Shown here: piece after piece, positions 1 through 56,386 of the stretch | Layout of the letters: every line of letters begins with the position of its first letter | Position numbering within the stretch: position 1 is the stretch's first letter | NCBI GenBank assembly: GCA_003151625.1 | Contig: PLYC01000021.1 | Location: 80,235-144,234, forward strand | Source of the DNA: Candidatus Doudnabacteria bacterium | Lineage (GTDB): Bacteria > Patescibacteriota > Doudnabacteria > UBA920 | Reading direction: 5' to 3' | DNA: 64,000 bases | Notes under the pieces: model-generated | What the model was told of the DNA's origin: nothing | The model's database searches: none | What the model saw: the letters and a program-made list of their open reading frames with translations, nothing else | Program-made: the position numbers and the translations under genes

Positions 1-80
1 CCGTGCGACCAGTTGGTTATGGTCTCCGGGCTGGCGAGTTTTAAGCGGACACCTTTGAAATCTTCGGTTTGGGTGAACAT
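1..80 (-). CDS. rpoC: DNA-directed RNA polymerase subunit beta' (RpoC), N-terminal 27 codons; the gene continues beyond the window start
   Basis: Reverse complement of 1-80 translates to MFTQTEDFKGVRLKLASPETITNWSHG. This matches the conserved beta' N-terminus (E. coli ..[24 protein letters not shown]). Sits downstream of rpoB on the same strand. Confidence 0.65.
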   Translation of the reverse strand, partial: MFTQTEDFKGVRLKLASPETITNWSH

Positions 81-364
81 GAAAATTAGTTATTAGTTAA
101 TATTGCTTAGTTTGTAGCGTGCCGATTTATCGGCTGTTTTCTTAATTAAATATTTTTAATTAGTTTAATTAACCTAATTGTTCTAATTATTCTAAATAAT
201 GTCTAATGCTTAAATGTCTAAATTCTGACATTGGATATTATGATTTGTTTAGGTCAATTAGACTAATTAGAGCAATTAGAATAATTTTTTAGCCTCTTTA
301 CAAACCTCTCTCTCTGTGGTATTTTTAGCTGTCCGATTCTTCGGCATGCAAAGGAGGTTCTATC

Positions 365-604
365 GTGGCAACGCACGACATCGATTGTGCTCTTAACTTC
401 GGGCAACTGACTGATTCTGAGCGGTGGGCTTACCTGGTCAGGCAAAATGCCTACTACATCTGGGAACGCCGGGTGAAAGCAGACACGCCTGGCACTCCAG
501 AAGAAGACTGGACAACAGCGGAAGCCGAGGTCGCCAAAGGCTGGAAAGTCTGGTTTACTGATGGATTTCTCGAATCGTTGCACCTACCAGCGGCCATCAC
601 ATAA
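365..604 (+). CDS. DUF2934-family small protein (GTG start), in a GC-rich patch
   Basis: 79-aa ORF preceded by AAAGGAGG 7 nt upstream of GTG. Sequence ..ERWAYLVRQNAYYIWERR..GTPEEDWTTAEAEV.. fits the DUF2934 pattern (AY.LWE.RG...G...DW..AE.EL). GC is noticeably higher than the flanks. Confidence 0.55.
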   Translation: MATHDIDCALNFGQLTDSERWAYLVRQNAYYIWERRVKADTPGTPEEDWTTAEAEVAKGWKVWFTDGFLESLHLPAAIT

Positions 605-609
605 ACTTC

Positions 610-700
610 GTCCTGATCGTCCGCACCCCGTGCCCTGTGCCGGTTAGTTTTCCGTCCGCCTTCCGCCAACTGGCGGATGAGGATTTGGAGCTAACGGTAC
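610..700 (+). terminator. Long hairpin followed by a T-run (rho-independent terminator-like) after the DUF2934 gene
   Basis: ccctgtgccggttag ... ctaacggtacaggg stem enclosing a CCGCCaactGGCGG mini-palindrome, followed by tcggttttttt. Confidence 0.5.
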
Positions 701-757
701 AGGGTCGGTTTTTTTATTGGAGGATATTTTAAGGTTCTTTGCATTATCTGCGGAGCT

Positions 758-883
758 TCCCCTCCTTCTTTAAGGAGGGGGTGTCCCGTCGGATGACGGG
801 ACGGGGTGGTGATACTTATCAACGCCGATTCATTCACCGCCTCCCCCGCCTGCGGCGGGTACTCCTCCTTAAAGAAGGAGGAG
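758..883. repeat. Composite GC-rich palindromic element between rpoB and rpoC; its ends are mutually inverted hairpins
   Basis: cccctccttctttaaggagggg (758-780), gtcccgtcggatgacgggac (783-802), ccgcctgcggcgg (846-858), ctcctccttaaagaaggaggag (862-883). The right half cctcccccgcctgcggcgggtactcctcctt... recurs almost identically in frame inside polA at 34745-34795. The element itself creates the spurious ORFs 739..930 and 924..1115. Confidence 0.7.
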
Positions 884-935
884 AGACTGCATTACGATTC
901 GTGTTCATTCGTCTGCAGTATTTGTGTTAATTAGT

Positions 936-3900
936 TTATTTTTTCTTTTCCTTCTTCGTCGGCTTCTTTTTAACCTCATCGTCAAACAAAGAAGTTTCAC
1001 TTACAATAGGCATTACTGGGGGGAGGTTTGGAACAATAATTTCCGGCTCTTCGGCGGCGGAGCTTACCGCGCCGTCCCGGCCGAGCAGTTCCACATCCAG
1101 ACAAAGCGACTGTAATTCTTTAACCAAGACTCTGAAACTTTCCGGAATATTTGGTTTTTTAATCGGTTCGCCTTTGACAATGGCTTCGTAAGTTTTTGAG
1201 CGTCCTACTACATCGTCCGATTTTATGGTCAGCATTTCCTGCAGAGTGTGGGCCGCGCCGTAACCTTCCAAAGCCCAGACTTCCATTTCCCCAAAACGCT
1301 GGCCACCGAACTGGGCTTTTCCGCCAAGCGGCTGTTGGGTAATAAGCGAGTACGGACCGGTGGAACGCGCGTGCATTTTGTCATCTACCAAATGGTGTAA
1401 TTTTAAGAAATACATTACGCCCACGGTAACTTTTTCATCAAACCTGTCGCCGGTTTTTCCGTCTATTAGATAGACCTTGCCGTCTTCCGGAATGCCGGCC
1501 TTTTTTAATTCTTCTTTAATTTTACTTTCGTGTACTCCGTCCAAAACCGGAGTCGCGACATGATAGCCCAAGCGTAAGGCGGCCATGCCCAAATGAGTCT
1601 CTAAAATCTGTCCGAGGTTCATACGGGACACCACGCCAAGAGGATTTAAAATAATATCCACGGGGGTGCCGTCTTCCATAAACGGCAAATCTTCCACCGG
1701 AATAATTTTGCTAATAACTCCTTTGTTTCCGTGGCGGCCGGCCATTTTGTCGCCGACCTGGACTTTGCGCAATACCGCGACTGAAACCTGAATACTGCGA
1801 ATAACGCCGCTCTGGAGCTTGTCTCCGGCTTCCCTGGTAAACTGGCGGATGTTTACAACTTTTCCGTATTCGCCGTGAGGCAAAGTCAAAGAGGTGTCTT
1901 TAACATCGCGGGACTTTTCACCAAAAATTACTCTTAAAAGTTTTTCTTCCGCGGTTAAATCCGTTTCGCCTTTTGGCGTAATCTTGCCGACTAAAATGTC
2001 CCCGGCTTTAACCTGGGCGCCAATGCGGATAATCCCGGTGTCGTCTAAATCCTTTAATTTTTCTTCGCCGACATTGGGAATGTCGCGGGTAACCTGCTCT
2101 GGTCCCAACTTAGTATCGCGCACATCTATTTTAAAATCATCAATATGAATACTGCTGTAGCGATCCTGCTGAACCACGCGCTCGGAGACCAAAATAGCGT
2201 CTTCGTAGTTACCGCCTTCCCAAGACATAAACGCCACCAAAACATTTTGGCCCAGAGCCAATTCGCCGTGTTCAGTAGAAGCTCCATCTGCCAACAAATC
2301 TCCTTTTTTTACAGTTTGTCCCTTATTTACACGGGCAATTTGGTTAATGGATGTGGCGGAGTTGGTTCGCAAAAATTTCAACAGCGGATATTCTTTCTTT
2401 TTGCCTTTTTCGCCGACCACAATAATTTTTTCGCCCATGACCGATGTTACGGTGCCGTCTTCTTCGGCCAAAACCACGGTGCCGGAATCACGCGCCGCTT
2501 TGCCTTCCATACCCGTGCCGACTATAGGCGCGTCGGGCTTTATGCAGGACACGGCCTGACGTTGCATGTTACTGCCCATTAACGCACGGTTGGCGTCATC
2601 GTGTTCCAAAAACGGAATCAACGATGTAGTTACGGAAATAATTTGTTTTGGAGAAACATCCAAAAAATCAATATCGTCCGTGGAAGCCATAGTCGGCACA
2701 GTGCGTACACGTACGCTGGCGCGGGGTTCCACAAAATACCCCTGCTCGTTTAAATTAATATTGCTTTGACCGATAATTAATTTTTCTTCCTGGTAAGCAT
2801 CCAAATAAACAATTTTTCCGGTGGCGCGGGGCTTAATTCGTACTTCCAATAGCTGATGATTTTTGGCCGCCTCTTTGGCTTTGCTCGCGCTGACGGTTTC
2901 TCCGGCCGGCACTATGACTTTGCCTTGTTCATCTTTAATATCGTAAAGGGAAATTTCTTCTTCTAAGTCTTTGCCGTCATTTTTGGCGGCTTTTTTTACC
3001 ACGCGGTACGGGGTTTCTATAAAACCAAAATCGTTGACGCGCGCGTAAGTTGCCAAGTGGGCCACGAGTCCGATGTTCGGTCCTTCCGGAGTGGTAATTG
3101 GGCAAAGCCGGCCGTAGTGGCTATGGTGCACATCGCGGACTTCAAATCCGGCGCGTTCTCTGGAAAGTCCTCCGGGACCCATGGCACTAAGGCGGCGCTT
3201 GTGTTCAAGCTCGGCCAACGGATTTGTCTGGTCCATAAACTGGGACAGCTGGGAAGAGGAAAAAAATTCCTGCATAGTGGCAACTATGGGGCGGACATGG
3301 ATAAGCTGGGCTGGAGTTACAGTATCTAAATCGGCCAAGGACATGCGGTCTTTGGCTATTCTAGCCATGCGGGCAAGGCCAACGCGAAAGCGGGCCTGGA
3401 TAAGTTCACCAACGGCTCTGACGCGGCGGTTTGCTAAGTGGTCTATGTCGTCCGGTATGCCCTGGGTATTGTTTAATTTAATAACTTCCCGAACAGCCAT
3501 AACCAAATCTTCTTTGGTCAAAATTTGGCTTTCGTTATTTTGTACGTTTAAGCGCTGGTTAAACTTATAACGGCCGACCGCGGAAATATCGTAGCGCTCG
3601 GTGTTAAAAAACATACCGGAAATTAAAGACTTGGCGTTGTCTACGGTAGCCAGGTCGCCTGGGCGAATTCTTTTATAGACTTCCTTGTAGCCTTCGTCGG
3701 CATTAGTGGAAGCGTCTTTTTCCAGAGTGTTTAAAATATATTTAGTGTCCGGGTCGGTATCTACGTCTGCAAAAGCGGCTAAAATTTCCTCGTTGCTGTT
3801 TAGACCGAAGACTCTTAAAAGGGCGGTTATGGGAATTCTTCTTTTGCGGTCGATTTTTACGCCAATTACTCCGGCGGCATCGGTATCCAGTTCCAGCCAA

Positions 3901-4433
3901 GCGCCGCGGTTAGGTATGATTTTCGCACCGTAATAATTTTTACCGCGCAAATTCTCGGCCGTAAAAAATACGCCCGGGGATTTAATAAGCTGGTTAACCA
4001 CAACGCGCTCCACGCCATTGATAATAAATGTGCCGCGCGGAGTCATTAACGGAAAATCTCCAAAATACACGTCTTGAGTCTTTACTTTGCCGGTTTGTTT
4101 GTTGACCAGCTTGGCGGAAACATACAGCGGGGCTTCGTAAGTGGTGTTTCTCTCGCGGGAAGTAAACTCGTCGTATTTGGACTTGTCAAAAAAGAAATCG
4201 CCAAAAAACATTTCCAGGTTTTTCCCGGTAAAGTCGCGAATCGGATTAATTTCTCCCAATAAGTCCTTAAGACCTTTTTCTACAAACCACTTATACGAAA
4301 TTAGCTGTACCTCTATTAAATTAGGCAGCAGCGCGGTTTCGTGGCTTGAGGTAAAAAACTTGCGTGGTGACAACTTGCTCTCGGGGAACTTAACCATGGC
4401 GGAGACGCCAACGGTTTTAGATTTAGTAGCCAT
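936..4433 (-). CDS. rpoB: DNA-directed RNA polymerase subunit beta
   Basis: 1165-aa ORF with a characteristic RpoB sequence throughout (e.g. ..[27 protein letters not shown].., ..[15 protein letters not shown]..). Confidence 0.97.
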
Positions 4434-5487
4434 TAAATAACCTAACTTAGGATTGCTGTTTTTTTAGAGACAACACTCCCTAGAGCCAAAAAACGCACTT
4501 TTTGGCTTATTTAAGGATAAAAACTAAATCCTATAAACCTCTTAACAAAAAGAGGTGTTACAATATTGAGCCATCCCCGGATTAAATCCGGGGAAAAAAT
4601 TGGCCAAAATTGTAAGACCGAAGAATATTCTACATCTTCTATCTCCCCGAAATCATGATTGAAGACGCAAAACATTCCCTTTTTCGCGTAAGCAAAAAAG
4701 GCCGATCCACAAAGGCTTATAGGCTTATTAAATTGTGCATATTAGGATTGTAGCAGTCAAGGAGAATTTGTCAAGTCCCAAACCGCAGGTTTGGGACTTA
4801 GCCCTGTACCGGAAGCCTTGGCGACTGGTACGGGGCAAGTCGATCATTTCATTTGTATCTCTATCCTACCACACTTACCCCCAAACTTCAAACAGTTAAT
4901 CCACAAGTTATTATTTTTCAGGCCACCAAGCTATTTTTCACCCCATCCCCTAACGAACGGGGCGGCAGGAAAAGAATAGAATGATGGCCTGGAAAATCGG
5001 GACGAACAAGGCGTAGTGCTTAGCCTGGTTCATCCCAAAGTGGTGCAATTTTTTTGTTTTTCCGGCGCCCCTGTTTGGTCAAGGCTGCCGGGCAAGTTTT
5101 GGAGAAGTTATTTTTTCCTCTTCTTCGAGTTTCTCCTTTCCAGCCGACGGCCTTGCTCAACGCCGAGCTGGACTGCCAGGTTGATTATGACCCACAGCAG
5201 ATCCCGACCCTCCTCCTCTTGTTGCTGGAGCATTTCGGGATCAAAAGTCCTGTAGGGCCGCGCACTCAACCTTCTCGCAAGGTTGGATTGAGTGGAGATA
5301 ACGTCCAACCCCTCATACACAAGGGTCTGGCGTTTTCTCCTTTGAAGCCGATAGCCCTGGCGGAGAGCCGACACCAAAGGGTCGACAATCCACTCAAGAA
5401 ACCTTACCGGCTGCTTTTTTGGCCACTCCACTTTTCTATTCACCTCCTTTATATGGTTTTTGTGGCCGGTTCCATCAACCGGTAATC

Positions 5488-5841
5488 TTATTTTTCGTCG
5501 GGAAGATTTTTACCCGACAACTCCCGAACATCGTCCGGGTCGTCGCCGAAGCAGTATTCCTCCGACCATACTTGGCGGTGAAGATCGGTCAGCGGTCCAA
5601 ACATCGGCCCGTCTGCCGAAACCAACAGCTCCATCGCCGTTTCAAAAGCGAGGAAGCCCTCCTGGCCGTACATCCGTACGGCCACGTACTCGCGTACCGT
5701 AGGTCCTCCCGCAAGACCGAGCGAAAAGCCGTTCACCAAAGCGGCCACCGCGTGGGCGAAGGCGAAGATACGGCCTTCGGAGGCCTCGGGGTTTCGTGCT
5801 CGGGCATATTCAAGTGCCCGCCCGAGAAAAAACTCCTCCAT
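5488..5841 (-). CDS. Hypothetical protein (GC-rich island)
   Basis: ORF 5488..5913. The likely true start is MEEFF at 5841, with a GGAAGAGG RBS about 10 nt upstream. It immediately follows the stop of the upstream ORF at 5844. No recognisable family. Confidence 0.45.
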   Translation of the reverse strand: MEEFFLGRALEYARARNPEASEGRIFAFAHAVAALVNGFSLGLAGGPTVREYVAVRMYGQEGFLAFETAMELLVSADGPMFGPLTDLHRQVWSEEYCFGDDPDDVRELSGKNLPDEK

Positions 5842-5843
5842 GG

Positions 5844-6473
5844 CTATTTTACCTCTTCCCCGCCTTGGCTGGGCGGAATTTCGACCGGCTGTTGGGGCTC
5901 CGAGGTGAGGCACAACAGCCCCACCATTGGCAGCCGCCGTAGTAGGCGAAAAACCACCTGTGACAGCTCGTCTACGAGGCTGATGACCGCCTCGATTTCG
6001 TCGTTGCTATACTCCGGCTTGGTGCCGGTCTTCTCCACGACGACCGAGAGGCCGCCCGCGGCGTTAAAGCCGTTGGAGTTGGGCGTAGCCGGGAAATCGC
6101 GGCCGTAGCCGCGATAGCCGATGTCCGTGGTGTCTACCAGGCCATCGACCGTATTTCCCGTGTCCGGGAAATTGCCTTCCGGTTCGGCCGGCTGCCACCC
6201 GCCCTGTTTGAGGAGGCCGACCACATGGTCGACCATTGCCGCCACGTCCCCATAGGGGCGGACGCGGCGGAATTCAAACCAGAAGCGGAGCTTCTGGTGG
6301 TCGGACAGCCCGGCTTGATCCGGGCATTCGGCCGTGGTCGCGTCGCCAATGAATGGCGCGGCCGGGCTGTCCACGTCTCCGTACAGACAGACGCGGACGC
6401 GATCCGTTCCCTGACTCTCGCCGCCGAAAGACAGGTCCAACGGCAGACCTTTAACGTAGGTTTGTGGTTCCAT
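5844..6473 (-). CDS. Hypothetical protein (GC-rich island)
   Basis: ORF 5844..6527. An internal start MEPQTYVKG at 6473 has AAAGGAG 11 nt upstream. Protein-like composition, unlike the R/S-rich opposite-strand ORFs. Confidence 0.45.
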   Translation of the reverse strand: MEPQTYVKGLPLDLSFGGESQGTDRVRVCLYGDVDSPAAPFIGDATTAECPDQAGLSDHQKLRFWFEFRRVRPYGDVAAMVDHVVGLLKQGGWQPAEPEGNFPDTGNTVDGLVDTTDIGYRGYGRDFPATPNSNGFNAAGGLSVVVEKTGTKPEYSNDEIEAVISLVDELSQVVFRLLRRLPMVGLLCLTSEPQQPVEIPPSQGGEEVK

Positions 6474-6720
6474 ACGTTTTTTACTCCTTTTAAAATTGGG
6501 TTTTCTGTTTCGTCCTTGCGGACTCATCAGCCTGGGACTTCTATACCCAAGGACAGAAAAATACTAAAAATTAAGCGTGTAGTGCAGGCCATCGGCCTGC
6601 TTTAAATAAAATCTTTGGGGAAAGGTTTGTGCAAAACCGTTTCCCCGTAGATTGAATGCGTTATACGTCTGCCCGTACAGTCTCGCCGTTTGTTGCTAAA
6701 ACGGTGACAAAATTCTGCCG

Positions 6721-7806
6721 CTACTTTGGCAACTTTGGAAGGCGGGTTTTGGCTTCAATCTCCCGTTCCCAGGAAATCATGTTGTTGCCGAAAAACTTCT
6801 CGGCAACTTCCTGGCGGGAAAGCCACTCGGCTCCCGGCTCGTCCTGTTGGGTGGAGTAAAGGACGAACGGGTGGCCGCAGACCGCCCGGAAAGCCTTCTC
6901 CACTTCCGCCTCCCCGACACGCGAACGCGTCGGGTGCGAGCCAACGTGTAGGTGGCGTTCCCAGAGCCCGACAATCCCTGGGTGGCCGGTGATTTGGAAA
7001 ATCCGGCCACCGACCCGAAAGTCGACGGTCAAACCCTTATCCACCAGGCACAACAACAGCCAAGGGATGGCCCACTTATGCTTTTCCGTGGGCAACGTCC
7101 ACGGACATTTCGTGGTCGCCGGCTCCTGCTCGTCCACTTCCTCGGAGCCCCACACGAACGCGTGGGTGTTCCAAAACTCCTCGGAGCAGGCAGTGGCCCG
7201 CTTGTCCCACGGCTGGGGCTCGGGCACCCCGCCAAAGAACGCGCCGAGGAGCAGGAACGTGTCCCCCTGCCGTTTCAAGACCACCGTTACCTCGGAGCTG
7301 GGCTCCGGCTGGCGGTTTTTGACGAACCGGCTCAAGCCTCGGTCTTTAGCGCCCAGCTTGCGCCGGGCATAAACCACAACCTCACCCTTCCCCTCCAAGT
7401 AGGGCCGGAACTCCTCCGGCGCCTCTTCGGCCAGGGGTTGAGCCGGCATGACCTCGTCGGGACGATGCTTCACCCAGGCTTTGGCGAAATGCTCGGCCTG
7501 GGTTTTTTTGGAGGCCTGCTCGTCCCGCCAAGCTCCCGCCCGTCGCTGGGCGTCGCGGATTTCGCCGTCACGCCTGGTGGCGACGACGTTGCTGTTGCCA
7601 ATCGGCCGACCAAAATCGACCGACTGGATAATCATCCCGACCTCACCAGCCGGGAATCCATCTTCTGGATTGTGCGCATTGACCCGCGCCAAAGCGCGGG
7701 CGAGGAACCGCGCGGTACCTTTGTACCGCTGTGATCCCTCGTTAGCCAGGACCGTCTCGCCGCTTGCGAGCGTCCCGACCTTCTTCATTTGTAGTGAAGA
7801 CGCCAT
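6721..7806 (-). CDS. Hypothetical 361-aa protein (GC-rich island)
   Basis: Long ORF with AAAGGAGAGGG RBS about 9 nt upstream of the ATG. No family confidently recognised. Confidence 0.5.
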   Translation of the reverse strand: MASSLQMKKVGTLASGETVLANEGSQRYKGTARFLARALARVNAHNPEDGFPAGEVGMIIQSVDFGRPIGNSNVVATRRDGEIRDAQRRAGAWRDEQASKKTQAEHFAKAWVKHRPDEVMPAQPLAEEAPEEFRPYLEGKGEVVVYARRKLGAKDRGLSRFVKNRQPEPSSEVTVVLKRQGDTFLLLGAFFGGVPEPQPWDKRATACSEEFWNTHAFVWGSEEVDEQEPATTKCPWTLPTEKHKWAIPWLLLCLVDKGLTVDFRVGGRIFQITGHPGIVGLWERHLHVGSHPTRSRVGEAEVEKAFRAVCGHPFVLYSTQQDEPGAEWLSRQEVAEKFFGNNMISWEREIEAKTRLPKLPK

Positions 7807-7920
7807 TGTTTTGCCCTCTCCTTTTGGGCTATCTATTTACTAGAGATTCTTCGCTCCGCTCAGAATGACGCCGAAAAAAACCTAACAAACACATAGCTCA
7901 AAAGAAAAAAGCCTCCTCCC

Positions 7921-8025
7921 CCGCCAAGCCGTAGCCTGTGGTCCACAGCCGGGCGGGGGAAGAGAGGAACAAAAAGTTGTGCAGACTTTTGTTCCCCTCG
8001 ACTTAAGTGCAAATGGCGATTAAGG
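7921..8025. repeat. Intergenic repeat copy A, homologous to 12570-12690
   Basis: Shares gccgtagcct, aaaagttgtgca[ga]acttt and cccc..c.t.agtgcaa blocks in the same order with the MoxR/vWA spacer. Contains nested hairpins (ccccgcc...ggcgggg, ggaacaaaaag...cttttgttcc). Confidence 0.55.
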
Positions 8026-10013
8026 CTCGCCGTGGGCCTCACCGGAGGTGGTGAATTTTTGTGTTTGGTATTTTTTCTCCGGTGGCAGCTATAGTACGAA
8101 TCCGTTCCTTTAGGCCAACAAGAGCACAAAGGCTCCCGTCGAAACGTATTCGTCTGCTTTGTCTTTCCCGCGCGCTTGCCGGCGCGGCCTTAAATAGGAG
8201 GTTTTACCTAACTTCAGGCTTCCTCCCGGCGCGATTCTCTTTTTTAGCATCCTGTTTTGTGACTTGTGGAAAATTGGTGATTGGTTAGGATGTTTCAAGA
8301 ACCGCGATTCGGCGTCCGTCTTGCCTGGATGGGCCAAAGCTGGTGGCTCTGGCAAAGACTAATCCCTGTGGCGAGCAGGAAAATTGTTTCCCCTCCTTAA
8401 ACAACCTGCAAACCGGCGTTTACAGGCCGCCTAATTCAGGCCAGGCAAAAATAAACTGCGACCTATCTTGGTGTTTGGTGAAAGATAGTGTTTGGTAATT
8501 TTTAGGTCGCAGGCGGATGGATATTAAAACCCGATAATTGCTTCGGGCTTCACTTAAACATTTAGTTCAATCCACCCCGGCCCTAAGCCAAGGCTGTTTA
8601 AGTTTTTGCGGCAGCCGTTGCCGACTTTTCCATCCTGACACTCCTTGGGGGCTTTTCGGCTGTTTAGTGGGTATATTTAGTAGCCAAAAAACCTTAACCC
8701 CTTAGAGCCGCTGTTGTGTATCTCCCAAACCGCCAGCTGGCAGCTTGGGTCTCGTGTAGCGTTTTTGATGAGCGAAAGAAGGTAAAACGCCTTCCACCGG
8801 GCCCTTAGCCCATAAAGATAAGTGGCGAATGTCGCCGCCAAACCTTTCCTTTCGCTGTTTGTTCTTCCCTCATTCTGCCGGGATTGTTTGCCGACAAACC
8901 TCTTGGGGCGCGCCTGCCCATTACCTTTCGGCAATAAACACAGTACAAACTTAAAACTGCTTGACGTGGGGTATTGTATATTAGCGCTTCTTACTGTGAC
9001 AATTTTTTACCCAATAGGAGATTACTCTCCGCACAGAGAAGCGGCTGGATTTTCTGTTGTGCTCACCTGTAGTACTCTCCAGCAAAACCTAAGATGAGCA
9101 TTAACCAGTTTGTAATTTGTATTTTGGATTCCACACTCTGGTAAAAAGAACCCAAAACAGGCAGTTGTATTTAGAGCGTTGGTAAAAACAATTAGCCAAA
9201 ATCTTACCAACGCCGGTGCTGCTTGTTAGCGGTAAATCAGGTGCAGTTTATTGAAACCTGCCTTACCGACTTCTTGCTCTAATGACAAAATACCGTGACA
9301 TCCAGCTGGCAATGTCCTGTAAGTACCCTGCCACCTACAAATTTAATGAGCGCCTGAAGCAGAAGCTCATTAAACCAGCCGCGTTGCTTAAACCTTTTCC
9401 GCCCTCAGCGCGAAAGCCCTGCGGAAAAGAAAAATTTTTCTGAATAGCCAGGCTCAAATGAATTTTTAAACATTTGAGCCGCCAGCGCCACTGGCCCCTC
9501 TAGCCAAACAAAATCAGCCGATGCAGTTTCTGGCGCGTCCGGTTTACTGATTCACCGGACCTTGTGCGATGGGAACACAAGAATTTTGTAACCCACCTTG
9601 CGCCTTTTTAACGCTCTTTACCGATTCTTAACATGCTTGCCTTACGGCAAGGGAACATAGGTCTATCTATCCTAAAACCTATGCCTTTCATGCTCAGCCA
9701 CCCCCGATGCGCCTTCCCGGTCATCTCGAGAGAAAATGAACCGCTTGTCAGGGTTTAAACCCTCTACGGTGCCCTTATCATTTTTGTCTTTCTCCTCTTC
9801 GAAAAATCCAAACCAACCAAGAACCTCTTCCCGGCTTATTTGGGAGTAACGTGATGTTTTACGTTCCTCTCAAAATTTTATAGTTTATACCTTGCCGACT
9901 CGTCCGCCATAGCTTTAGCGAATTTGGATTTATCGGCCAAAACATAACTAGAAAACTTTGAGAGGAAGAGGAAGCCTAGGCGGTGTGCAATCGCGGGGCT
10001 TCCTCTTTTAGTG

Positions 10014-10454
10014 CTATTTGCCAAGGGCTGCTAAAAATCCCTTGGCCTTGTTGTCGTCCCGCCAGCTCCGCCACTCGGCGGGGACATGGGCGGCTTTTCG
10101 GCCGCGGTACTCAAGCGCCGCCCCTGGATAACCGGAACTGCGGCCGCTTGTGGTGTCCCACATGGACACCGTCAGGTCACCAATAGTGACCTTTTTTGCC
10201 GAGGACGGAACGTCGCTCGGCCAGCCGGGTTTCAGGCAGTTGTCATTCCAACCACCCGTCCCCCGGAAAAGTTGCCGGAGGAGGTTGCGCGGGATTTTCA
10301 CCCGCTCTTTTTTGCCGCGAATGCGGCGGGCGGCGGCCAAAGTGCGCAGGGTGTGCTTTCCCTGGAACTTGGCTATCACCAGCTCAATCGACGGCTTTTC
10401 AATCTCGGCCACAAAGGTTGTGACCGAGTCGATCGGTTTCTTCACGTCGGCCAT
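10014..10454 (-). CDS. Hypothetical 146-aa protein, last gene of the Alba-MoxR-vWA operon
   Basis: Start MADVKK at 10454 with AAGAGGAG RBS. Sits 85 nt downstream of the vWA gene on the same strand. GC-rich. Confidence 0.5.
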   Translation of the reverse strand: MADVKKPIDSVTTFVAEIEKPSIELVIAKFQGKHTLRTLAAARRIRGKKERVKIPRNLLRQLFRGTGGWNDNCLKPGWPSDVPSSAKKVTIGDLTVSMWDTTSGRSSGYPGAALEYRGRKAAHVPAEWRSWRDDNKAKGFLAALGK

Positions 10455-10538
10455 TTTCTCTCCTCTTATGGACCGAAACGGATGGTGTTTTATTATTTGG
10501 TAACCATCCCCCAAACCCTTGTCCGGATTCTCACCGAA

Positions 10539-23908: not shown

Positions 23909-23924
23909 AAGTTGATATTAATAG

Positions 23925-24005
23925 ATATTGTTGATATTGGGATATTAAACGATATTTACGATTTCTCAATATCTTAATATCCAAATATCAATTAATATCT
24001 TTTTT
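23925..24005. promoter_or_regulatory. AATATC/GATATT box array upstream of femAB
   Basis: gatattgggatattaaacgatatttacgatttctcaatatcttaatatccaaatatcaattaatatc. The same box array is found upstream of tsaE and ruvB. Confidence 0.4.
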
Positions 24006-25129: not shown

Positions 25130-25233
25130 ACGACTCCGGAGCTCGACTTAAGAACTGCGCGGCCTCCTCGGTACCCACCGGGCGAGGTCGTTTTTTTCTT
25201 TATACTTTATACAAAATACTCTATACTTTTATT

Positions 25234-29530: not shown

Positions 29531-31438
29531 CTAGTGACTAGCAGACCCACTCCCTGCATCGGAGAGAGGGAAGGCCGCAGAGGTTGCAAAGCTTTCTAAA
29601 AATTTTACAATACGCTGGTCCAATAAAATGTCAGCCGGGTAAATTGGACGCTTTAGAGTCAGACCGACTAGGGTGCGGCATCGGGAAAGCGCGACGTAAA
29701 GCTGGCCATGTGCAAAAGTGCCGGAGGCTAAATCTATATAAACTTTATCAAAAGTTTTGCCTTGGGCTTTGTGAATAGTTACCGCCCAGGCTAATTTAAA
29801 CGGATATTGAGTATAGGTACCCATGGTTTTACTCTTTACCGTTTCGGTATATTTATCAAGCGTAAAACTGTACATTTCCCAAGTATATGGCTCAACGTTT
29901 ACAGTCTCGCCGGTTTCGAGTTCAACAATGATGGTATCGGGAGCATTGTTTTCTTCAATAGAAAAATCAGTGGTAAGGGGTTCCGATTCAGAGGCAGCAA
30001 ATGGATCGGCAGTATCGTAACTCCAACCACCCCGTCCCGCTCCGCGGGCCACCCCTCCTTGAAAAGGAGGGGAAACCACACCTAGATTAAATTTTTCTAT
30101 ACCAATAATTTTCCCCATTGTGCCATTGACCCAGCGCTTGCGCTGGTCGTTATTGAGCATCATAATTTGCGCGCCAACTTTTATTTGTAAGTGTAAATCC
30201 GTGGGAAGTTCGCGATCTTGAAAACTGCCGCGCGCGCTACCGGTATAAACCTTTGGCTCCGACTCAATACGCTCCAAAAAATAATTATTTACCCAACTTG
30301 CCCGTTTGTTGGTCGGAGTTAAATAAATGGAAAATCTCTCAAAGGAAAATTCTTTTTCTTGATCTTGGGCGCGCTGGTTTAATATTTGCAAATGGTCGGT
30401 ACTCGCGGCATTATTGCGAACCGCGTTCAAGATTTCCAAAAATACCCTCTCCTTTTGTCTGTACATTGTCTGAAGTTCAATGAATTTAAATTGTGAATTT
30501 TTAAAACTTCGGGAATCAAAAAAATAAGGGCTCGTATATTCTTTAATTAAAGCGCTAACCGAACCAAAATCCCGCTCAACCGGCGGAAGTTGATACAAGT
30601 CGCCGATAAATATCATTTGCAAACCGCCAAACGGCATATCCGACGCTGGTCCGTTTAGACGCAAAAATTTATCAACGAAATCCAAGAGGTCGGCTCTGAC
30701 CATGGAAATTTCGTCTATGATTATGGTGTTTAATTTTAAAAGCAGTTTTCTTTTTGGGGAAAATGGGGCCAACTTTTTAACCTTTTGCATGGTTATGTCC
30801 GGACCAAAAGCGCAAAAAGAATGAATTGTTTGGCCTTCCACATTTAAGGCAGCAACGCCTGTCGGAGCCAGAACAACAATATTTTTCTCCGTGGTGTGGC
30901 GAAAATGCTGTAAGAGAGTAGATTTCCCTGTACCAGCCTCACCGGTTAAAAATAAATTCTGTTGGGTATTTTGCATTAAATCCAAGGCTCTTTGAGCCTC
31001 GGGATTGTCGGAAAAATTGAATTGTGGCGGCATCGTATCGCCCGGCTTAACAGAACCACCCCGCCTACCTTCTAAGGAGGCCAAGGCATCGGAAGATAGG
31101 TAGGAAGACACCCTTCCTTCGTGAAGAGGGGAAACGGCGCTCCCGCTGTCCTTTTTGCTTTTTCTTTCTTCATCACGCTTTTTTTGGGCATCGTAATCCC
31201 AACCCGCAATATCAGGAAAATATTTAGCCAAGCGGCCTCGGATGCCGTTTGGTTTACGGCCAAATTTTTCGGCTGTTGCCTCCAAAAATATTTCAAAGCT
31301 TTCCGATCCTTCCGTTTTATGGCTATCATAAACGTCCAAAAGCGCCGTATCCTCCTCTTTTGTCCAGCGCATGAAGGCCTTCGGATGCGTTTTACGCAAT
31401 TCTTCAATATTGCTTATTTTTTGGGCTTGTTTGTCCAT
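29531..31438 (-). CDS. Pif1/RecD-like ATP-dependent DNA helicase with N-terminal extension
   Basis: Motif I LTGEAGTGKSTLL. Motif II IIIDEISMV. ..LQMIFIGDLYQLPPV.. In-frame palindromic insert at 30027-30077 coding GVVSPPFQGGVARGAGRGG. Confidence 0.8.
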   Translation of the reverse strand: MDKQAQKISNIEELRKTHPKAFMRWTKEEDTALLDVYDSHKTEGSESFEIFLEATAEKFGRKPNGIRGRLAKYFPDIAGWDYDAQKKRDEERKSKKDSGSAVSPLHEGRVSSYLSSDALASLEGRRGGSVKPGDTMPPQFNFSDNPEAQRALDLMQNTQQNLFLTGEAGTGKSTLLQHFRHTTEKNIVVLAPTGVAALNVEGQTIHSFCAFGPDITMQKVKKLAPFSPKRKLLLKLNTIIIDEISMVRADLLDFVDKFLRLNGPASDMPFGGLQMIFIGDLYQLPPVERDFGSVSALIKEYTSPYFFDSRSFKNSQFKFIELQTMYRQKERVFLEILNAVRNNAASTDHLQILNQRAQDQEKEFSFERFSIYLTPTNKRASWVNNYFLERIESEPKVYTGSARGSFQDRELPTDLHLQIKVGAQIMMLNNDQRKRWVNGTMGKIIGIEKFNLGVVSPPFQGGVARGAGRGGWSYDTADPFAASESEPLTTDFSIEENNAPDTIIVELETGETVNVEPYTWEMYSFTLDKYTETVKSKTMGTYTQYPFKLAWAVTIHKAQGKTFDKVYIDLASGTFAHGQLYVALSRCRTLVGLTLKRPIYPADILLDQRIVKFLESFATSAAFPLSDAGSGSASH

Positions 31439-53149: not shown

Positions 53150-53439
53150 GAAATTAGTCGATAACTAATAATTGATAACTTATAACAGTGCAAAACTAAT
53201 AATAAAGGTTCGCTCTCCGCAGAGCTCCGAGGTGCTGAACCTGTATTAGCTCCTCGGCTCGGAATATTGTCTGCCGGAGGCAGATAATATTCTCTCGCTC
53301 TACGTCGCAAATAAACTATCAATTAAATATTATCAGTTAATTCAACGATTTATCAGTATAATCCATTTTACTTTAGGCGTCAATACAGTGTAAAATGATA
53401 AATAGATATTGAATGATGTGGGGAAATTAAGATATTTGG

Positions 53440-55194: not shown

Positions 55195-55242
55195 TGCCTG
55201 ATTAATATCAATTAATATCCAAATATCTATAATATCCTTCAA
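55195..55242 (+). promoter_or_regulatory. AATATC box array immediately upstream of ruvB
   Basis: gattaatatcaattaatatccaaatatctataatatccttcaaATG. Confidence 0.45.
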
Positions 55243-56286
55243 ATGATTACATCAAGCAACAAACAAGACGCTCCATTGCAAGCCGAACCCGAAGATCAGG
55301 AGGAAATAATTATCGAACAAACTTTGCGACCGCAGAGTCTTTTGGAGTACGTGGGACAAACGGGCGTCAAAAATAATTTAAATATAATTATTCAGGCGGC
55401 CAAGCAGCGGGGGGATGTTTTGGAACATTTACTGTTTTACGGGCCGCCGGGCCTGGGCAAAACCACGCTGGCGTTTATTGTGGCGCGCGAAATGGGCGGC
55501 AACATTAAAGTCACTTCAGGTCCGGCCATTGAACGCGCCGGAGATTTAGCCAGCCTGCTCACCAACTTAAGCGAAGGCGATGTGTTATTTATAGACGAAA
55601 TTCACCGGCTCAATAAAGCCGTGGAGGAAGTTTTATACCCGGCTATGGAAGACCACGTACTTGATATAGTTTTAGGCAAAGGCCCAGGCGCGCGTTCTAT
55701 CCGAATGGATTTGCCTAGGTTCACGCTAATTGGCGCGACTACCAGAATCGGACTAATTTCTTCCCCCCTGCGCGACCGCTTTGGCGCCACCTACCGTTTG
55801 GAGTATTATCCGGAAAAAGATTTGCAAACCATTATAAACCGAAACAGTAAAATCCTTCAGGCAAATATTATAGACGAAGCTTCGGCCGAACTTTCCAAGC
55901 GCTCGCGCTTTACCCCGCGCATTGCCAACCGCCTTTTAAAGCGGGTGCGTGATTTTGCCCAAGTCCATGGCCATGATACAATTAATTTACAAACGGCCAA
56001 ACAGGCCTTGGAATTATTGGAAATAGACGGTTTGGGTCTGGATAAAAACGATCGCCGGGTATTGGAAACTTTAATCCATAAATTTTCCGGGAAGCCCGTG
56101 GGACTAAACACGCTGGCCGCGGCCACCGGTGAAGAGGAAGACACCATAACCGATGTCCACGAACCGTTTTTAATCCGCCTGGGGCTTTTGTCCAAAACCC
56201 CCAAAGGCCGACAGGCCACGGAAGCGGCTTATAAGCACCTGGGACTAACTCCGCCTATCGATCCTCAGCAAAAACCCCTTTTATAA
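55243..56286 (+). CDS. ruvB: Holliday junction DNA helicase RuvB
   Basis: ..[15 protein letters not shown].., ..LFIDEIHRL.., sensor motifs. Confidence 0.95.
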
Positions 56287-56386
56287 TTAAATAAAATTGA
56301 CAAAATTAAGTAAAATTAAATAAAAATTACTGCAACAAATTTTGTTCAATTTTACTTAATTTTATTTAATTCTGGTCAATCCCCTT

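What the first reader, a model, noticed from the sequence alone, without database searches (positions are those of the whole stretch)
80..935. rpoB-rpoC operon is split by an ~850-bp insertion carrying an oppositely oriented GC-rich DUF2934 gene
rpoB ends at 936 and rpoC starts at 80. In most bacteria these are separated by tens of bp. Here the spacer contains three things:
- An AT-rich stretch with ctaatt/aattag repeats and the gccgatttatcggc palindrome.
- A GC-rich 79-aa DUF2934-like gene on the opposite strand, with its own strong RBS and hairpin terminator.
- The composite palindromic element.

Insertion of foreign DNA into the core transcription operon is unusual. It implies rpoC now needs its own promoter.
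Basis: partly seen in the sequence, partly recalled or inferred. Interest (0 to 1): 0.55.

Follow-up and report, generated by a model that had tools for sequence, protein, structure and literature searches.

The report
Variable small-gene slot between rpoB and rpoC
In this uncultured Patescibacteria genome the two largest RNA-polymerase genes are separated by 855 bp instead of the usual few dozen. The gap holds a backward-facing small-gene unit whose gene differs even between near-identical strains, plus mobile hairpin repeats, so it is a real and recent insertion hot spot in a normally rigid operon.

Summary
rpoB ends at 936, rpoC starts at 80, and the spacer is 855 bp, against a median of 39 bp in 149 other loci. 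The 79-aa opposite-strand ORF passes Pfam's DUF2934 threshold and has a promoter, a ribosome-binding site and a strong terminator.

Close relatives change the interpretation.
- A relative with 94-95% identical RpoB has only a 90-bp spacer, an empty site, so the expansion is derived.
- A same-species strain from another sample has the same architecture, so it is not an assembly error. Its ORF is an unrelated 85-aa gene.
- A third species has the same ~45-nt promoter with a third, unrelated 57-aa ORF.
- A fourth has only the palindromic doublet.

The spacer is therefore a polymorphic hot spot: a conserved antisense promoter with an exchangeable small ORF. The "composite palindrome" is an inverted doublet of a ~60-nt two-hairpin repeat. 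Single copies of that repeat also sit in frame in polA, a PIF1-like helicase and a Wzy-like gene. The gccgatttatcggc palindrome is an older, GTAG-tagged repeat-like hairpin.

All convincing terminators face the cassette direction and none faces rpoB→rpoC. Read-through transcription of rpoC therefore remains possible, and "rpoC needs its own promoter" is not established. The function of the DUF2934-like protein is unknown.

The parts
1..80 (-). 5' end of rpoC (ATG at 80-78); the gene continues beyond the left edge of the window
   Evidence: Translation MFTQTEDFKGVRLKLASPETITNWSH. The full 1298-aa gene with Rpb1 domains 1-5 is in the parent contig.
81..134 (.). Older, rpoC-proximal part of the spacer. 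It includes the GTAG-tagged, REP-like palindrome (+ strand 114-134, GTAGCGTGCCGATTTATCGGC; palindrome proper 121-134) and a 7-bp tandem repeat, ATTAGTT x2, at 85-99.
   Evidence: The palindrome lies at the orthologous place in the 90-bp 'empty' spacer of L173 and in L174, and is split by a 30-nt insertion in L172. The last ~25 nt before the ATG differ from the sequence TAATCACTAACCACTTCCCCCT, which L172 and L173 share exactly.
141..294 (.). AT-rich divergent region between rpoC and the cassette promoter. It carries 9-bp-phased TAATT(A/G) arrays in inverted orientation (157-195 and 256-286) and an 8-bp array at 198-223.
   Evidence: It is 94% identical to L172 over 135 nt, against 15% synonymous divergence in the flanking genes (p = 7e-4). 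It is absent from L173, L174 and L175. A weak promoter-like site faces rpoC at 205-177 (-).
295..364 (+). Conserved expression 'shell' of the cassette: -35 TTTACA (297-302), 17-nt spacer, extended -10 TGgTATTTT (317-325), a 5' UTR with a small hairpin CCGAttctTCGG, and the ribosome-binding site AAAGGAGG (350-357).
   Evidence: Promoter scan. The shell is 97.6% identical to L172. A ~45-nt core (CTCTCTCTGTG[G/C]TATTTTTAGCTGTCCGA plus the -35) is nearly identical in L174 although dS is about 1. Among 1.78 Mb of fetched loci it is found only in rpoB-rpoC spacers.
365..604 (+). 79-aa DUF2934-like gene, the exchangeable cargo of the slot. It is convergent with rpoB and divergent from rpoC.
   Evidence: Pfam PF11154, 29.5 bits against 22. 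Only 17 relatives at E<1e-3 among 1.84 billion representatives; the best are 61%, 55% and 50% identical. AlphaFold model pLDDT 90, four helices, no PDB fold match. Replaced by unrelated ORFs in L172 and L174.
628..715 (+). Intrinsic terminator of the cassette: a long imperfect hairpin (628-708) followed by seven T (709-715).
   Evidence: Fold and sequence. The outer stem and T-run are conserved in L172 while the inner part is replaced. The equivalent site in L172 is called by the terminator scan.
716..747 (.). Downstream shell of the cassette (…ggatattttaaggttctttgcattat…).
   Evidence: 98% identical to L172 over 54 nt (window 700-753). The core 'aaccttaaa(a)tatcc' also occurs in L174.
748..891 (.). 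REPIN/BIME-like inverted doublet of a ~60-nt two-hairpin repeat: unit A at 748-812 (+), a ~20-nt linker, and unit B at 834-893 (-). The outer ends are CTGCGG…ACTGCA.
   Evidence: The same doublet sits at the same site in L172 and L175/L176, and in L175 it is the only insert. In 9 units, 141 of 143 stem positions pair, with compensatory changes.
886..935 (.). rpoB-proximal stretch: hairpin ACTGCA…TGCAGT (886-919) enclosing two ACGAAT repeats, then a T-rich run on the + strand. The 8-mer AATTAGTT (929-936) also occurs at 84-91.
   Evidence: The corresponding stretch in L172, L174 and L175 carries 3-4 ACGCG(A/G)A repeats. The 8-mer repeat is roughly a 1-in-10 chance event in AT-rich sequence (my estimate), so it is only a weak hint of a target duplication.
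936..4433 (-). rpoB, 1165 aa (stop codon at 938-936).
   Evidence: 99.6% identical to P0023; 94-95% to P0024, P0025 and P0026.

Best explanation
The rpoB-rpoC spacer of this Patescibacteria lineage has become a strain-variable insertion hot spot. It is not a single foreign insert.

**Shown.**
- The ancestral-type spacer was about 90 bp and held a small GTAG-tagged, REP-like palindrome.
- In some members of the genus it has grown to 226-941 bp by nested additions:
  1. An inverted doublet of a ~60-nt two-hairpin repeat lies just after rpoB. Single copies of the same repeat family sit in frame in polA, a PIF1-like helicase and a Wzy-like gene.
  2. A self-contained expression unit points back toward rpoB. 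It has a sigma-70-type promoter, a 5' UTR, a strong ribosome-binding site, a small ORF and a strong terminator.
  3. AT-rich 9-bp-phased repeat arrays lie between that promoter and rpoC.
- The promoter and terminator shell is conserved. The ORF inside it is exchanged: DUF2934-like (79 aa) here, an unrelated 85-aa ORF in a same-species strain, and a third, 57-aa ORF in another species.

**Inferred.**
- REP-type hairpins and the very conserved flanking genes make this spacer a place where insertions land. Inserts can then be moved between relatives by homologous recombination, and they are shielded from deletion because both neighbours are essential.
- The cassette is transcribed convergently with rpoB. 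It is stopped by its own terminator and then by the hairpin doublet, which insulates rpoB from antisense transcription.
- No terminator faces the rpoB→rpoC direction. rpoC is therefore probably still reached by read-through from the strong rpoB promoter, possibly supplemented by a weak promoter in the AT-rich region.
- The DUF2934-like protein is a small four-helix cytoplasmic accessory protein of unknown role. It is probably unrelated to RNA polymerase.
For: **Outlier length.**
- 855 bp against a median of 39 bp in 149 loci.

**Empty site and graded states in close relatives.**
- L173: 90 bp with the palindrome only.
- L175/L176: 226 bp with the doublet only.
- L172: 941 bp.
- L174: 860 bp.

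**Independent confirmation.**
- L172 comes from a different sample. It is 96-97% identical in rpoB and rpoC at the nucleotide level and shares every module.

**ORF swap.**
- Window 358-699 has no similarity to L172 4342-4665, while both flanks are 94-98% identical.
- L174 shares only the ~45-nt promoter core.

**Constraint on the non-coding modules.**
- They diverge less than synonymous sites (pS 0.153): 2 differences in 85 nt and 8 in 135 nt (p = 1e-4 and 7e-4).
- Against L174, about 40 of 43 shell positions match where pS is 0.56.

**The cargo family is not tied to this locus.**
- Homologues lie between uvrC-like and secG, between divIC and lepA, and on a short contig. Each has its own ribosome-binding site and terminator.

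**Repeat family.**
- Five copies in about 80 kb; nine units in three species all keep both hairpins.
- The polA copy coincides with a 13-aa gap relative to Klenow fragment.

**Other support.**
- Terminator-like sites fall on the cassette-sense strand in all three long spacers.
- Published REP biology matches: dimers, location downstream of genes, and intragenic copies in replication and repair genes (PMC3733652; REPIN/RAYT PMC3116915).
Against: - No transcript data exist, so the promoter, the terminators and read-through are predictions from consensus scans and folding.
- The five lineages are nearly equidistant (83-86% nucleotide identity), so gains cannot be told from losses.
- The 85-aa and 57-aa ORFs have no family support. 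They could be spurious, although each has a strong ribosome-binding site and a terminator.
- No REP-associated transposase (Y1/RAYT) appears among the precomputed Pfam hits over about 80 kb.
- Generic 'GTAG + hairpin' matches in the window are at chance level (5 against 4.0 expected).
- Conservation of the shell could reflect recent transfer rather than selection.
Confidence: 0.7

Rival explanations
1. One piece of foreign GC-rich DNA carrying a DUF2934 gene was inserted into the rpoBC operon. It broke co-transcription, so rpoC now depends on a new promoter in the AT-rich stretch.
For: - The insertion is derived.
- The AT-rich region resembles native promoter regions of this genome, which also carry short tandem arrays next to start codons.
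- A weak promoter-like site faces rpoC at 205-177.
- The AT-rich region is more conserved against L172 than synonymous sites are.
- The strong ribosome-binding site of the cassette is atypical for native genes.
Against: - The spacer is a mosaic assembled in steps: doublet only in L175, cassette without doublet in L174.
- The repeat units belong to a family resident in native genes.
- GC content is only modestly raised.
- No rpoBC-sense terminator is present.
- The candidate rpoC promoter matches only 9 of 12 consensus positions, and such matches are close to chance frequency (3 found against 1.4 expected).
Confidence: 0.3
2. The long spacer with its antisense slot is ancestral to this genus. 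It was secondarily lost in L173 and reduced in L175, so it is an old and stable feature rather than a recent insertion.
For: - The promoter core is shared by two species lineages whose dS is about 1.
- The five lineages are nearly equidistant.
- L172 and L174 share 46 nt just after rpoB at 91% identity.
Against: - More distant relatives (L083, L084) have 21-23 bp, and 149 loci have a median of 39 bp.
- In L174 the insert lies on the other side of the palindrome compared with the window and L172. It lacks both the arrays and the doublet, which suggests separate events.
- L173, slightly the closest to L174, is empty.
Confidence: 0.25
3. The DUF2934-like protein is functionally tied to RNA polymerase, for example as a small accessory subunit or regulator, and that explains its position.
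For: Position only. It is a small helical protein with a confident model.
Against: - None of its homologues lies next to rpoB or rpoC.
- The same slot holds unrelated ORFs in sister genomes.
- There is no fold match to known polymerase-binding proteins.
Confidence: 0.05
4. An integron-like system: a resident promoter with site-specifically exchanged ORF-plus-hairpin cassettes.
For: - The promoter is conserved while the ORF and the inner part of the downstream hairpin are exchanged.
- The swap boundary lies right after the ribosome-binding site and inside the hairpin.
Against: - No integrase lies within about 10 kb on either side.
- There are no GTTRRRY or RYYYAAC core sites in 340-760.
- Only one cassette is present per locus.
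Confidence: 0.03
5. Assembly artefact: a chimeric join inside the spacer.
For: The source is a metagenome contig with patchy composition.
Against: - The same architecture was assembled independently in another project (L172), and a similar one in L174.
- rpoB and rpoC are both intact at the edges.
- The repeat units are about 60 nt and too divergent to mislead a k=141 assembly (inference).
- The spacer repeats belong to a family embedded in native genes of the same contig.
Confidence: 0.02

Closest known systems
REP / BIME / REPIN elements (repetitive extragenic palindromes; REP doublets thought to be mobilised by RAYT transposases; PMC3116915, PMC3337134, PMC3733652)
   Same: - Short palindromic repeat units lie just downstream of a gene.
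- They are arranged as an inverted doublet with a short linker that can fold into one long hairpin.
- The hairpins are kept through compensatory changes.
- One palindrome (114-134) carries a GTAG tag.
- Intragenic copies occur in replication and repair genes, as reported for REPs.
   Different: - The unit is about 60 nt with two hairpins and has no GTAG or CGTC tag.
- Three of five copies lie in coding sequence.
- No RAYT was found in the ~80 kb available.
- To my knowledge such repeats have not been described in Patescibacteria.
Rickettsia palindromic elements (RPE; cited from memory: Ogata et al. 2000; summarised in PMC3733652)
   Same: - Palindromic repeats are inserted in frame into functional protein genes, adding a short peptide at a tolerated loop.
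- The same family also occurs in intergenic DNA.
   Different: - The sequence is unrelated and shorter (19-20 codons).
- The encoded peptide is Pro/Gly-rich (SPPF[KQ]GGV…GGGGG).
- The phylum is different.
Canonical bacterial rplKAJL-rpoBC operon; fused rpoBC of Helicobacter and Wolbachia (textbook knowledge)
   Same: The rpoB→rpoC order and orientation are kept. rpoB has a strong promoter and a long conserved leader.
   Different: - The spacer is 855 bp with a convergent gene, instead of tens of bp.
- No ribosomal protein genes lie upstream of rpoB.
- Some other Patescibacteria (L003, L013) appear to have a fused rpoB-rpoC reading frame.
Pfam DUF2934 (PF11154)
   Same: The AYxxWexR…G.P…DW..AE helix-turn-helix-like motif scores above the gathering threshold.
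   Different: - It belongs to a rare sub-family with extra N- and C-terminal helices.
- Only 17 relatives were found in 1.84 billion representatives.
- The one named relative is from a Patescibacteria MAG; the others come from unnamed metagenome contigs, including a groundwater assembly.
- The family has no known function.
Integron gene cassettes
   Same: A resident promoter expresses an exchangeable, promoterless ORF that is followed by an imperfect hairpin.
   Different: There is no integrase, no attC core sites, and only a single cassette.

Membership tests
rpoB / rpoC (RNA polymerase beta and beta' subunits) | Full set of Rpb2 (beta) and Rpb1 (beta') Pfam domains, adjacent and on the same strand | tested here: met
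   Precomputed Pfam hits for the 1165-aa and 1298-aa products. 60-99% identity to RpoB of many bacteria.
Pfam DUF2934 (PF11154) | Score at or above the curated gathering threshold (22 bits) | tested here: met
   29.5 bits, E=5.9e-7, residues 25-57 against profile positions 6-36 of 37.
Intrinsic (Rho-independent) terminator | GC-rich hairpin immediately followed by a T-run on the transcribed strand | tested here: met
   Hairpin 628-708 followed by T7 at 709-715 on the + strand. The equivalent site in L172 is called by the scan. Function was not tested.
REP / REPIN | Short palindromic unit repeated at several places in the genome | tested here: met
   Five copies in about 80 kb of the contig, plus orthologous copies in L172 and L175.
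REP / REPIN | Two units in inverted orientation separated by a short spacer (doublet) | tested here: met
   Units A (748-812) and B (834-893) with a ~20-nt linker. The same doublet is present in L172 and L175.
REP / REPIN | Unpaired GTAG (or CGTC) tag at one end of the unit | tested here: not met
   The ~60-nt units start with (G)TGCAGT or CTGCGG and have no GTAG or CGTC tag. The separate small palindrome at 114-134 does carry GTAG.
REP / REPIN | A cognate RAYT (Y1 transposase) gene in the genome | not testable with these tools
   None appears among the precomputed Pfam hits over about 80 kb. The rest of the genome is not available.
RPE-like intragenic palindromic elements | In-frame insertion in otherwise intact, conserved protein genes | tested here: met
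   - polA: a 13-aa gap relative to Klenow exactly at copy C.
- PIF1-like helicase: copy D lies inside an intact ORF.
- Wzy_C gene: copy E.
- All three are in the same frame and orientation.
RPE-like intragenic palindromic elements | Sequence homology to the Rickettsia RPE families | not tested
   No RPE reference sequences were available. Rfam gave no hit. The sequences are presumably unrelated.
Integron cassette | Linked IntI integrase and attC core sites (RYYYAAC … GTTRRRY) | tested here: not met
   No core sites in 340-760. No integrase among the neighbouring genes.

The most novel reading that the evidence does not exclude
The conserved ~45-nt antisense promoter between rpoB and rpoC may be a maintained device rather than baggage. 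There are two versions of this reading.

1. Convergent transcription from it, colliding with rpoB read-through, tunes how much rpoC is made relative to rpoB. The ORFs would then be interchangeable passengers.
2. The site is a dedicated 'safe-harbour' expression slot. Small accessory genes are swapped into it by recombination between the ultra-conserved rpoB and rpoC flanks, without any dedicated recombinase.

Either version would be a previously undescribed way of organising the core transcription operon in reduced genomes.
Probability: 0.15. Interest if true: 0.75.

Novelty: new variant of a known kind. Interest (0 to 1): 0.5.

Why it matters
- **A rigid junction broken.** rpoB-rpoC is among the most conserved gene junctions in bacteria. 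Here it tolerates an 855-bp spacer with a backward-facing gene that differs between strains of one species. The junction is therefore less constrained than assumed, at least in Patescibacteria.
- **A natural experiment.** It bears on how the two largest polymerase subunits stay balanced when their genes are pulled apart.
- **Repeat biology in a new phylum.** REP/RPE-type hairpin repeats, including in-frame copies in replication and repair genes, are shown here in a phylum where I know of no earlier description.
- **Practical use.** The rpoB-rpoC spacer could serve as a strain-typing marker for this genus. It is also a place to look for new small accessory proteins.

Tried and rejected
**Searches that found nothing.**
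- Rfam on the spacer (E-value mode) and on the whole window (gathering threshold): nothing credible. No tRNA or tmRNA.
- PHROGs, PADLOC and NCBIfam gave no hit for the DUF2934-like protein.
- Foldseek against the PDB: no match at E<=0.001. The afdb50 library was unavailable.
- The first word-based protein search found only the query itself.
- Viral-contig scans for the promoter shell, the DUF2934 family and the repeat unit were all empty.
- The literature has only incidental mentions of DUF2934. I found no report of in-frame palindromic elements in Patescibacteria.

**Searches that fell short.**
- The GTDB and JGI scans with RpoB fragments were swamped by universally conserved motifs. They returned relatives no closer than ~86% identical over the C-terminal 450 residues of RpoB. 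The close relatives came only from the full-length RpoB search.

**Ideas considered and dropped.**
- Transposon with terminal inverted repeats and a target duplication. The 8-mer AATTAGTT at both edges is roughly a 1-in-10 chance event in AT-rich DNA, and the ends are not inverted repeats.
- TAATTAG as a genome-wide motif. It is at chance frequency outside the spacer.
- The arrays as operators for the ORF's own product. The window and L172 share the arrays but not the ORF.
- Integron model.
- 'TACAAA' after the palindrome as a -10 box. It is better explained as the complement of the GTAG tag.
- General enrichment of GTAG hairpins in the window: 5 found against 4.0 expected.
Full report
**1. 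What is there**

The window comes from a 246,769-bp metagenome contig (ENA ERZ27254241, k141_694420). The organism is a Patescibacteria (CPR) bacterium. The best named RpoB matches are Patescibacteria MAGs, and dnaN and dnaA lie at the right edge of the window, so this is chromosome.

rpoB is 936..4433 on the minus strand (1165 aa). The rpoC ATG is at 80, and the gene is complete in the contig at 1298 aa. The spacer 81-935 is 855 bp.

Read in the cassette direction (+ strand), the spacer contains these parts:
- An older rpoC-proximal stretch with the palindrome at 121-134.
- An AT-rich region (19-26% GC) with 9-bp-phased TAATT(A/G) arrays in inverted orientation, at 157-195 and 256-286.
- A promoter, TTTACA-N17-TGgTATTTT, at 297-325.
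- A 5' UTR and the ribosome-binding site AAAGGAGG at 350-357.
- A 79-aa ORF, 365-604, with a GTG start that matches the N-termini of its homologues.
- A long hairpin at 628-708 followed by T7 at 709-715.
- A 144-nt composite palindrome at 748-891.
- A last hairpin at 886-919, next to the rpoB stop codon.

The ORF passes Pfam's DUF2934 threshold (29.5 bits against 22).

**2. Is the spacer unusual?**

I measured the rpoB-rpoC gap in 149 loci fetched from GTDB species genomes and JGI metagenomes.
- The median is 39 bp.
- Apart from one 607-bp case, the largest is 271 bp.
- The 607-bp case is L088, a high-GC organism with a same-strand, ankyrin-like ORF.
- Two Patescibacteria loci (L003, L013) appear to have a fused rpoB-rpoC reading frame.

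At 855 bp, and with an opposite-strand gene, the window is the extreme of this sample.

**3. Close relatives**

A full-length RpoB search found much closer relatives. I fetched four of them.

| Locus | Source | RpoB identity to the window (/) | Spacer | Content |
|---|---|---|---|---|
| L172 | JGI 3300076763 | 99% / 99.6% | 941 bp | Same modules as the window, but a different 85-aa ORF |
| L173 | JGI 3300037086 | 95% / 94.2% | 90 bp | Only a short AT-rich stretch and the palindrome GCCGATCCATCGGC |
| L174 | ENA ERZ27248448 | 94% / 93.7% | 860 bp | Same promoter core, a third 57-aa ORF, no doublet, no TAATTAG arrays |
| L175/L176 | JGI 3300031344 / ENA ERZ27245409 | 94% / 94.1% | 226 bp | Only the palindromic doublet, flanked by TGCAGT…ACTGCA |

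More detail on each:
- **L172** is at same-species level: rpoB is 96.3% and rpoC 97.4% identical at the nucleotide level, with synonymous difference pS 0.153. It shares the same doublet, the same promoter and 5' UTR, the same AT-rich arrays and the same outer terminator stem.
  - The segment from just after the ribosome-binding site to the inner terminator (window 358-699) is replaced by unrelated sequence encoding the 85-aa ORF.
  - L172 also carries three extra 30-40-nt hairpin insertions. One of them splits the palindrome.
- **L173** is an empty site.
- **L174** has its insert on the other side of the palindrome compared with the window and L172.
- **L175/L176** have no ORF and no small palindrome.

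Three conclusions follow.
- The expansion is derived.
- It is real, because it was assembled independently in other projects.
- It is polymorphic, and the DUF2934-like gene is only one of at least three alternative occupants of one slot.

**4. The conserved parts look constrained**

Between the window and L172 the non-coding modules differ less than synonymous sites do:
- 2 differences in 85 nt for the promoter shell plus the right-hand array.
- 8 differences in 135 nt for the AT-rich region.
- 1 difference in 54 nt for the stretch downstream of the terminator.
- The binomial probabilities at pS 0.153 are 1e-4, 7e-4 and 1e-3.

Against L174, where pS is 0.56, about 40 of 43 positions of the promoter core match (p about 1e-11). 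Among 1.78 Mb of fetched loci this core occurs only in rpoB-rpoC spacers. The conservation could come from purifying selection or from recent exchange. These data cannot separate the two.

**5. The palindromes**

The 'composite palindromic element' is two inverted copies of a ~60-nt unit joined by a ~20-nt linker. Unit A is 748-812 and unit B is 834-893. Each unit has two hairpins, C(Y)CCTCCTT-loop-AAGGAGG(R)G and then a GC hairpin, followed by GG(R)GG(Y)GGTGA.

The same family occurs three more times in about 80 kb of the contig, each time in frame inside an intact gene and always in the same frame and orientation:
- polA: …LRSSPPFKGGVPATGGGGGEI…. This coincides with a 13-residue gap relative to Klenow fragment.
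- A PIF1-like helicase: …VSPPFQGGVARGAGRGGW….
- A Wzy_C-type gene just beyond the window: …AVSPPSQGEVPAAGGGGGW….

In nine units from three species, 141 of 143 stem positions pair. Compensatory changes occur at two positions of hairpin 1, and hairpin 2 has five different self-complementary versions. The relatives' rpoBC loci outside this genus contain no copies.

The small palindrome reads GTAGCGTGCCGATTTATCGGC on the + strand (114-134), so it is a GTAG-tagged REP-type hairpin. It sits at the orthologous place in L173 and L174. A second GTAG family (GTAG-TGCAGGCCATYGGCCTGC) occurs at window 6579 and twice in L174, in inverted orientation, bracketing that genome's cassette. However, generic GTAG-hairpin matches in the window are at chance level (5 against 4.0 expected).

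All of this matches published REP biology. That includes dimers in opposite orientation, location downstream of coding regions, and intragenic copies in DNA synthesis and repair genes that encode 20-30 residues (PMC3733652). It also includes REP doublets as the mobile unit (PMC3116915). A cognate transposase was not seen in the ~80 kb available.

**6. The cargo gene**

- The protein has only 17 relatives at E<1e-3 among 1.84 billion representatives.
- The closest are 61%, 55% and 50% identical.
  - The one with a source name is from a 'Candidatus Pacebacteria' MAG, and another lies on a Hainich groundwater contig.
  - Where their contexts could be read, they are unrelated to rpoBC: between uvrC-like and secG, between divIC and lepA, and on a short contig. 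Each of those copies has its own AAAGGAGG-type ribosome-binding site and terminator.
- The AlphaFold model is confident (pLDDT 90) and has four helices. It has no PDB fold match.
- No function is known for DUF2934.
- Composition is only mildly atypical (GC 54%, GC3 56%).
- A better sign of non-native origin is the strong ribosome-binding site. It is shared with the genes of a GC-rich island upstream of rpoB (7 of 7), against 7 of 30 native genes (p = 3e-4). Many native genes instead have a TATAAT box 7-10 nt before the ATG.

**7. How it probably works (inference)**

- The cassette is a self-contained unit transcribed toward rpoB. It is stopped first by its own terminator and then meets the hairpin doublet and a final hairpin with a T-rich tail. 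All of these act on the + strand.
- In the rpoB→rpoC direction no hairpin is followed by a U-run in the window. The only sense-strand site in the relatives is one weak call inside the L174 ORF.
- rpoB has a strong promoter, TTGACA…TACAAT, near 4772-4742.
- I therefore favour continued read-through into rpoC, at about 60%. A weak promoter in the AT-rich region could contribute or take over, at about 40%.
- The hairpin doublet at the rpoB 3' end would be expected to stabilise rpoB mRNA and dampen downstream expression. This is established for REP elements in E. coli operons and is inferred here.
- The reason this spot became a hot spot is also inferred:
  - REP hairpins attract insertions, and L172 shows one inside the palindrome.
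  - The near-invariant flanking genes give long homology arms for exchange between relatives.
  - Deletions that stray into either essential gene would be lethal.

**8. Context**

Relative to L173 and L174, where an ABC-transporter gene lies about 400 bp upstream of rpoB, the window genome also has about 13.5 kb of extra DNA upstream of rpoB. This includes a GC-rich island at about 4.9-14 kb with hypothetical genes and a MoxR-like AAA+/VWA pair. A methyltransferase-MutH pair lies downstream of rpoC and is absent in L172. The whole rpoBC neighbourhood is therefore plastic in this lineage.

**9. Verdict**

The spacer is a derived insertion, but it is a stepwise mosaic with an exchangeable gene, and the operon is not necessarily broken.
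- I rate it a new variant of known kinds: REP-type repeats and a strain-variable accessory islet, in an unusual and highly conserved location.
- Interest is moderate.

Noticed in passing
window 34743-34800 (polA), 30020-30082 (PIF1-like helicase); L169:5150-5208 (Wzy_C-like gene, just beyond the right edge of the window): Three in-frame copies of the ~60-nt two-hairpin repeat sit inside intact genes, all in the same frame and orientation. They encode Pro/Gly-rich peptides (SPPF[KQ]GGV…GGGGG). The polA copy coincides with a 13-aa gap relative to Klenow fragment. This is RPE/intragenic-REP-like behaviour in a Patescibacteria genome.
   Followed up: yes
window ~4900-14000: A GC-rich island (55-65% GC) lies directly upstream of rpoB. 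It carries hypothetical genes with strong ribosome-binding sites and a MoxR-like AAA_5 + VWA gene pair. It is absent in L173 and L174, where an ABC-transporter gene abuts rpoB. No ribosomal protein genes precede rpoB.
   Followed up: partly
window 7860-10000: About 2.1 kb with no ORF longer than 91 aa, no Rfam hit and no tRNA, inside the GC-rich island. Its content is unexplained.
   Followed up: no
window 4600-4745 (-), upstream of rpoB: The rpoB leader is about 90% conserved across four species whose synonymous sites are saturated, and 99% identical to L172. It includes a hairpin, CCTTTTTTGC-n4-GCGAAAAAGG, with one compensatory pair, and the conserved start of a possible small ORF (4511-4675, MFCVFNHDFGEIE…). 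It may be a regulatory leader or a leader peptide. Rfam gives no hit.
   Followed up: partly
window 81-105 versus L172:4993-5014 and L173:11567-11588: The 22 nt before the rpoC ATG (TAATCACTAACCACTTCCCCCT) are identical in L172 and L173 despite dS of about 1. In the window they are replaced by an AT-rich stretch with a 7-bp tandem duplication (ATTAGTT x2). The effect on rpoC translation start is unknown.
   Followed up: partly
L172:4260-4290, 4767-4806, 4942-4971: The sister strain has three extra 30-40-nt hairpin insertions in the spacer. They belong to a second mini-repeat family, GACTTCGCTAAAGCTTCGTCGG. One of them lies exactly in the centre of the REP-like palindrome.
   Followed up: partly
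window 6579-6600; L174:11593-11615 and 12289-12310: A GTAG-tagged REP family (GTAG-TGCAGGCCATYGGCCTGC) is shared between species. In L174 two inverted copies bracket the whole antisense cassette.
   Followed up: partly
window, AT-rich promoter regions (for example 23911-24001, 25198-25229, 53160-53186, 55201-55237, 56285-56371): Many native intergenic regions carry short tandem arrays (period 7-10) directly next to start codons. Many genes have a TATAAT box 7-10 nt before the ATG and no ribosome-binding site, which suggests widespread leaderless or near-leaderless mRNAs.
   Followed up: partly
L003 and L013 (Patescibacteria MAGs): The rpoB reading frame runs on for about 3.7-3.9 kb past the position where RpoC homology begins. 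This suggests fused rpoB-rpoC genes, as in Helicobacter.
   Followed up: no
L088:540-1146: This is the only other locus of the 149 with a gene between rpoB and rpoC. It is a ~198-aa, ankyrin-repeat-like ORF on the same strand, in a 68%-GC organism.
   Followed up: no
L174:1-59 (gene running off the locus): The uvrB gene of this relative carries an intein (Intein_splicing + LAGLIDADG_3 Pfam hits; 1226 aa against 696 aa in the window genome).
   Followed up: no
L165:6283-6440: Downstream of the DUF2934-like homologue in a Pacebacteria MAG, a ~40-bp perfect inverted repeat flanks a GC-rich centre. One arm overlaps the 3' end of lepA.
   Followed up: no
window 62659-63759 and beyond (L169): dnaN lies at the right edge of the window. 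dnaA, rnpA and yidC lie just beyond it, so the replication origin region is about 65 kb from rpoBC.
   Followed up: no
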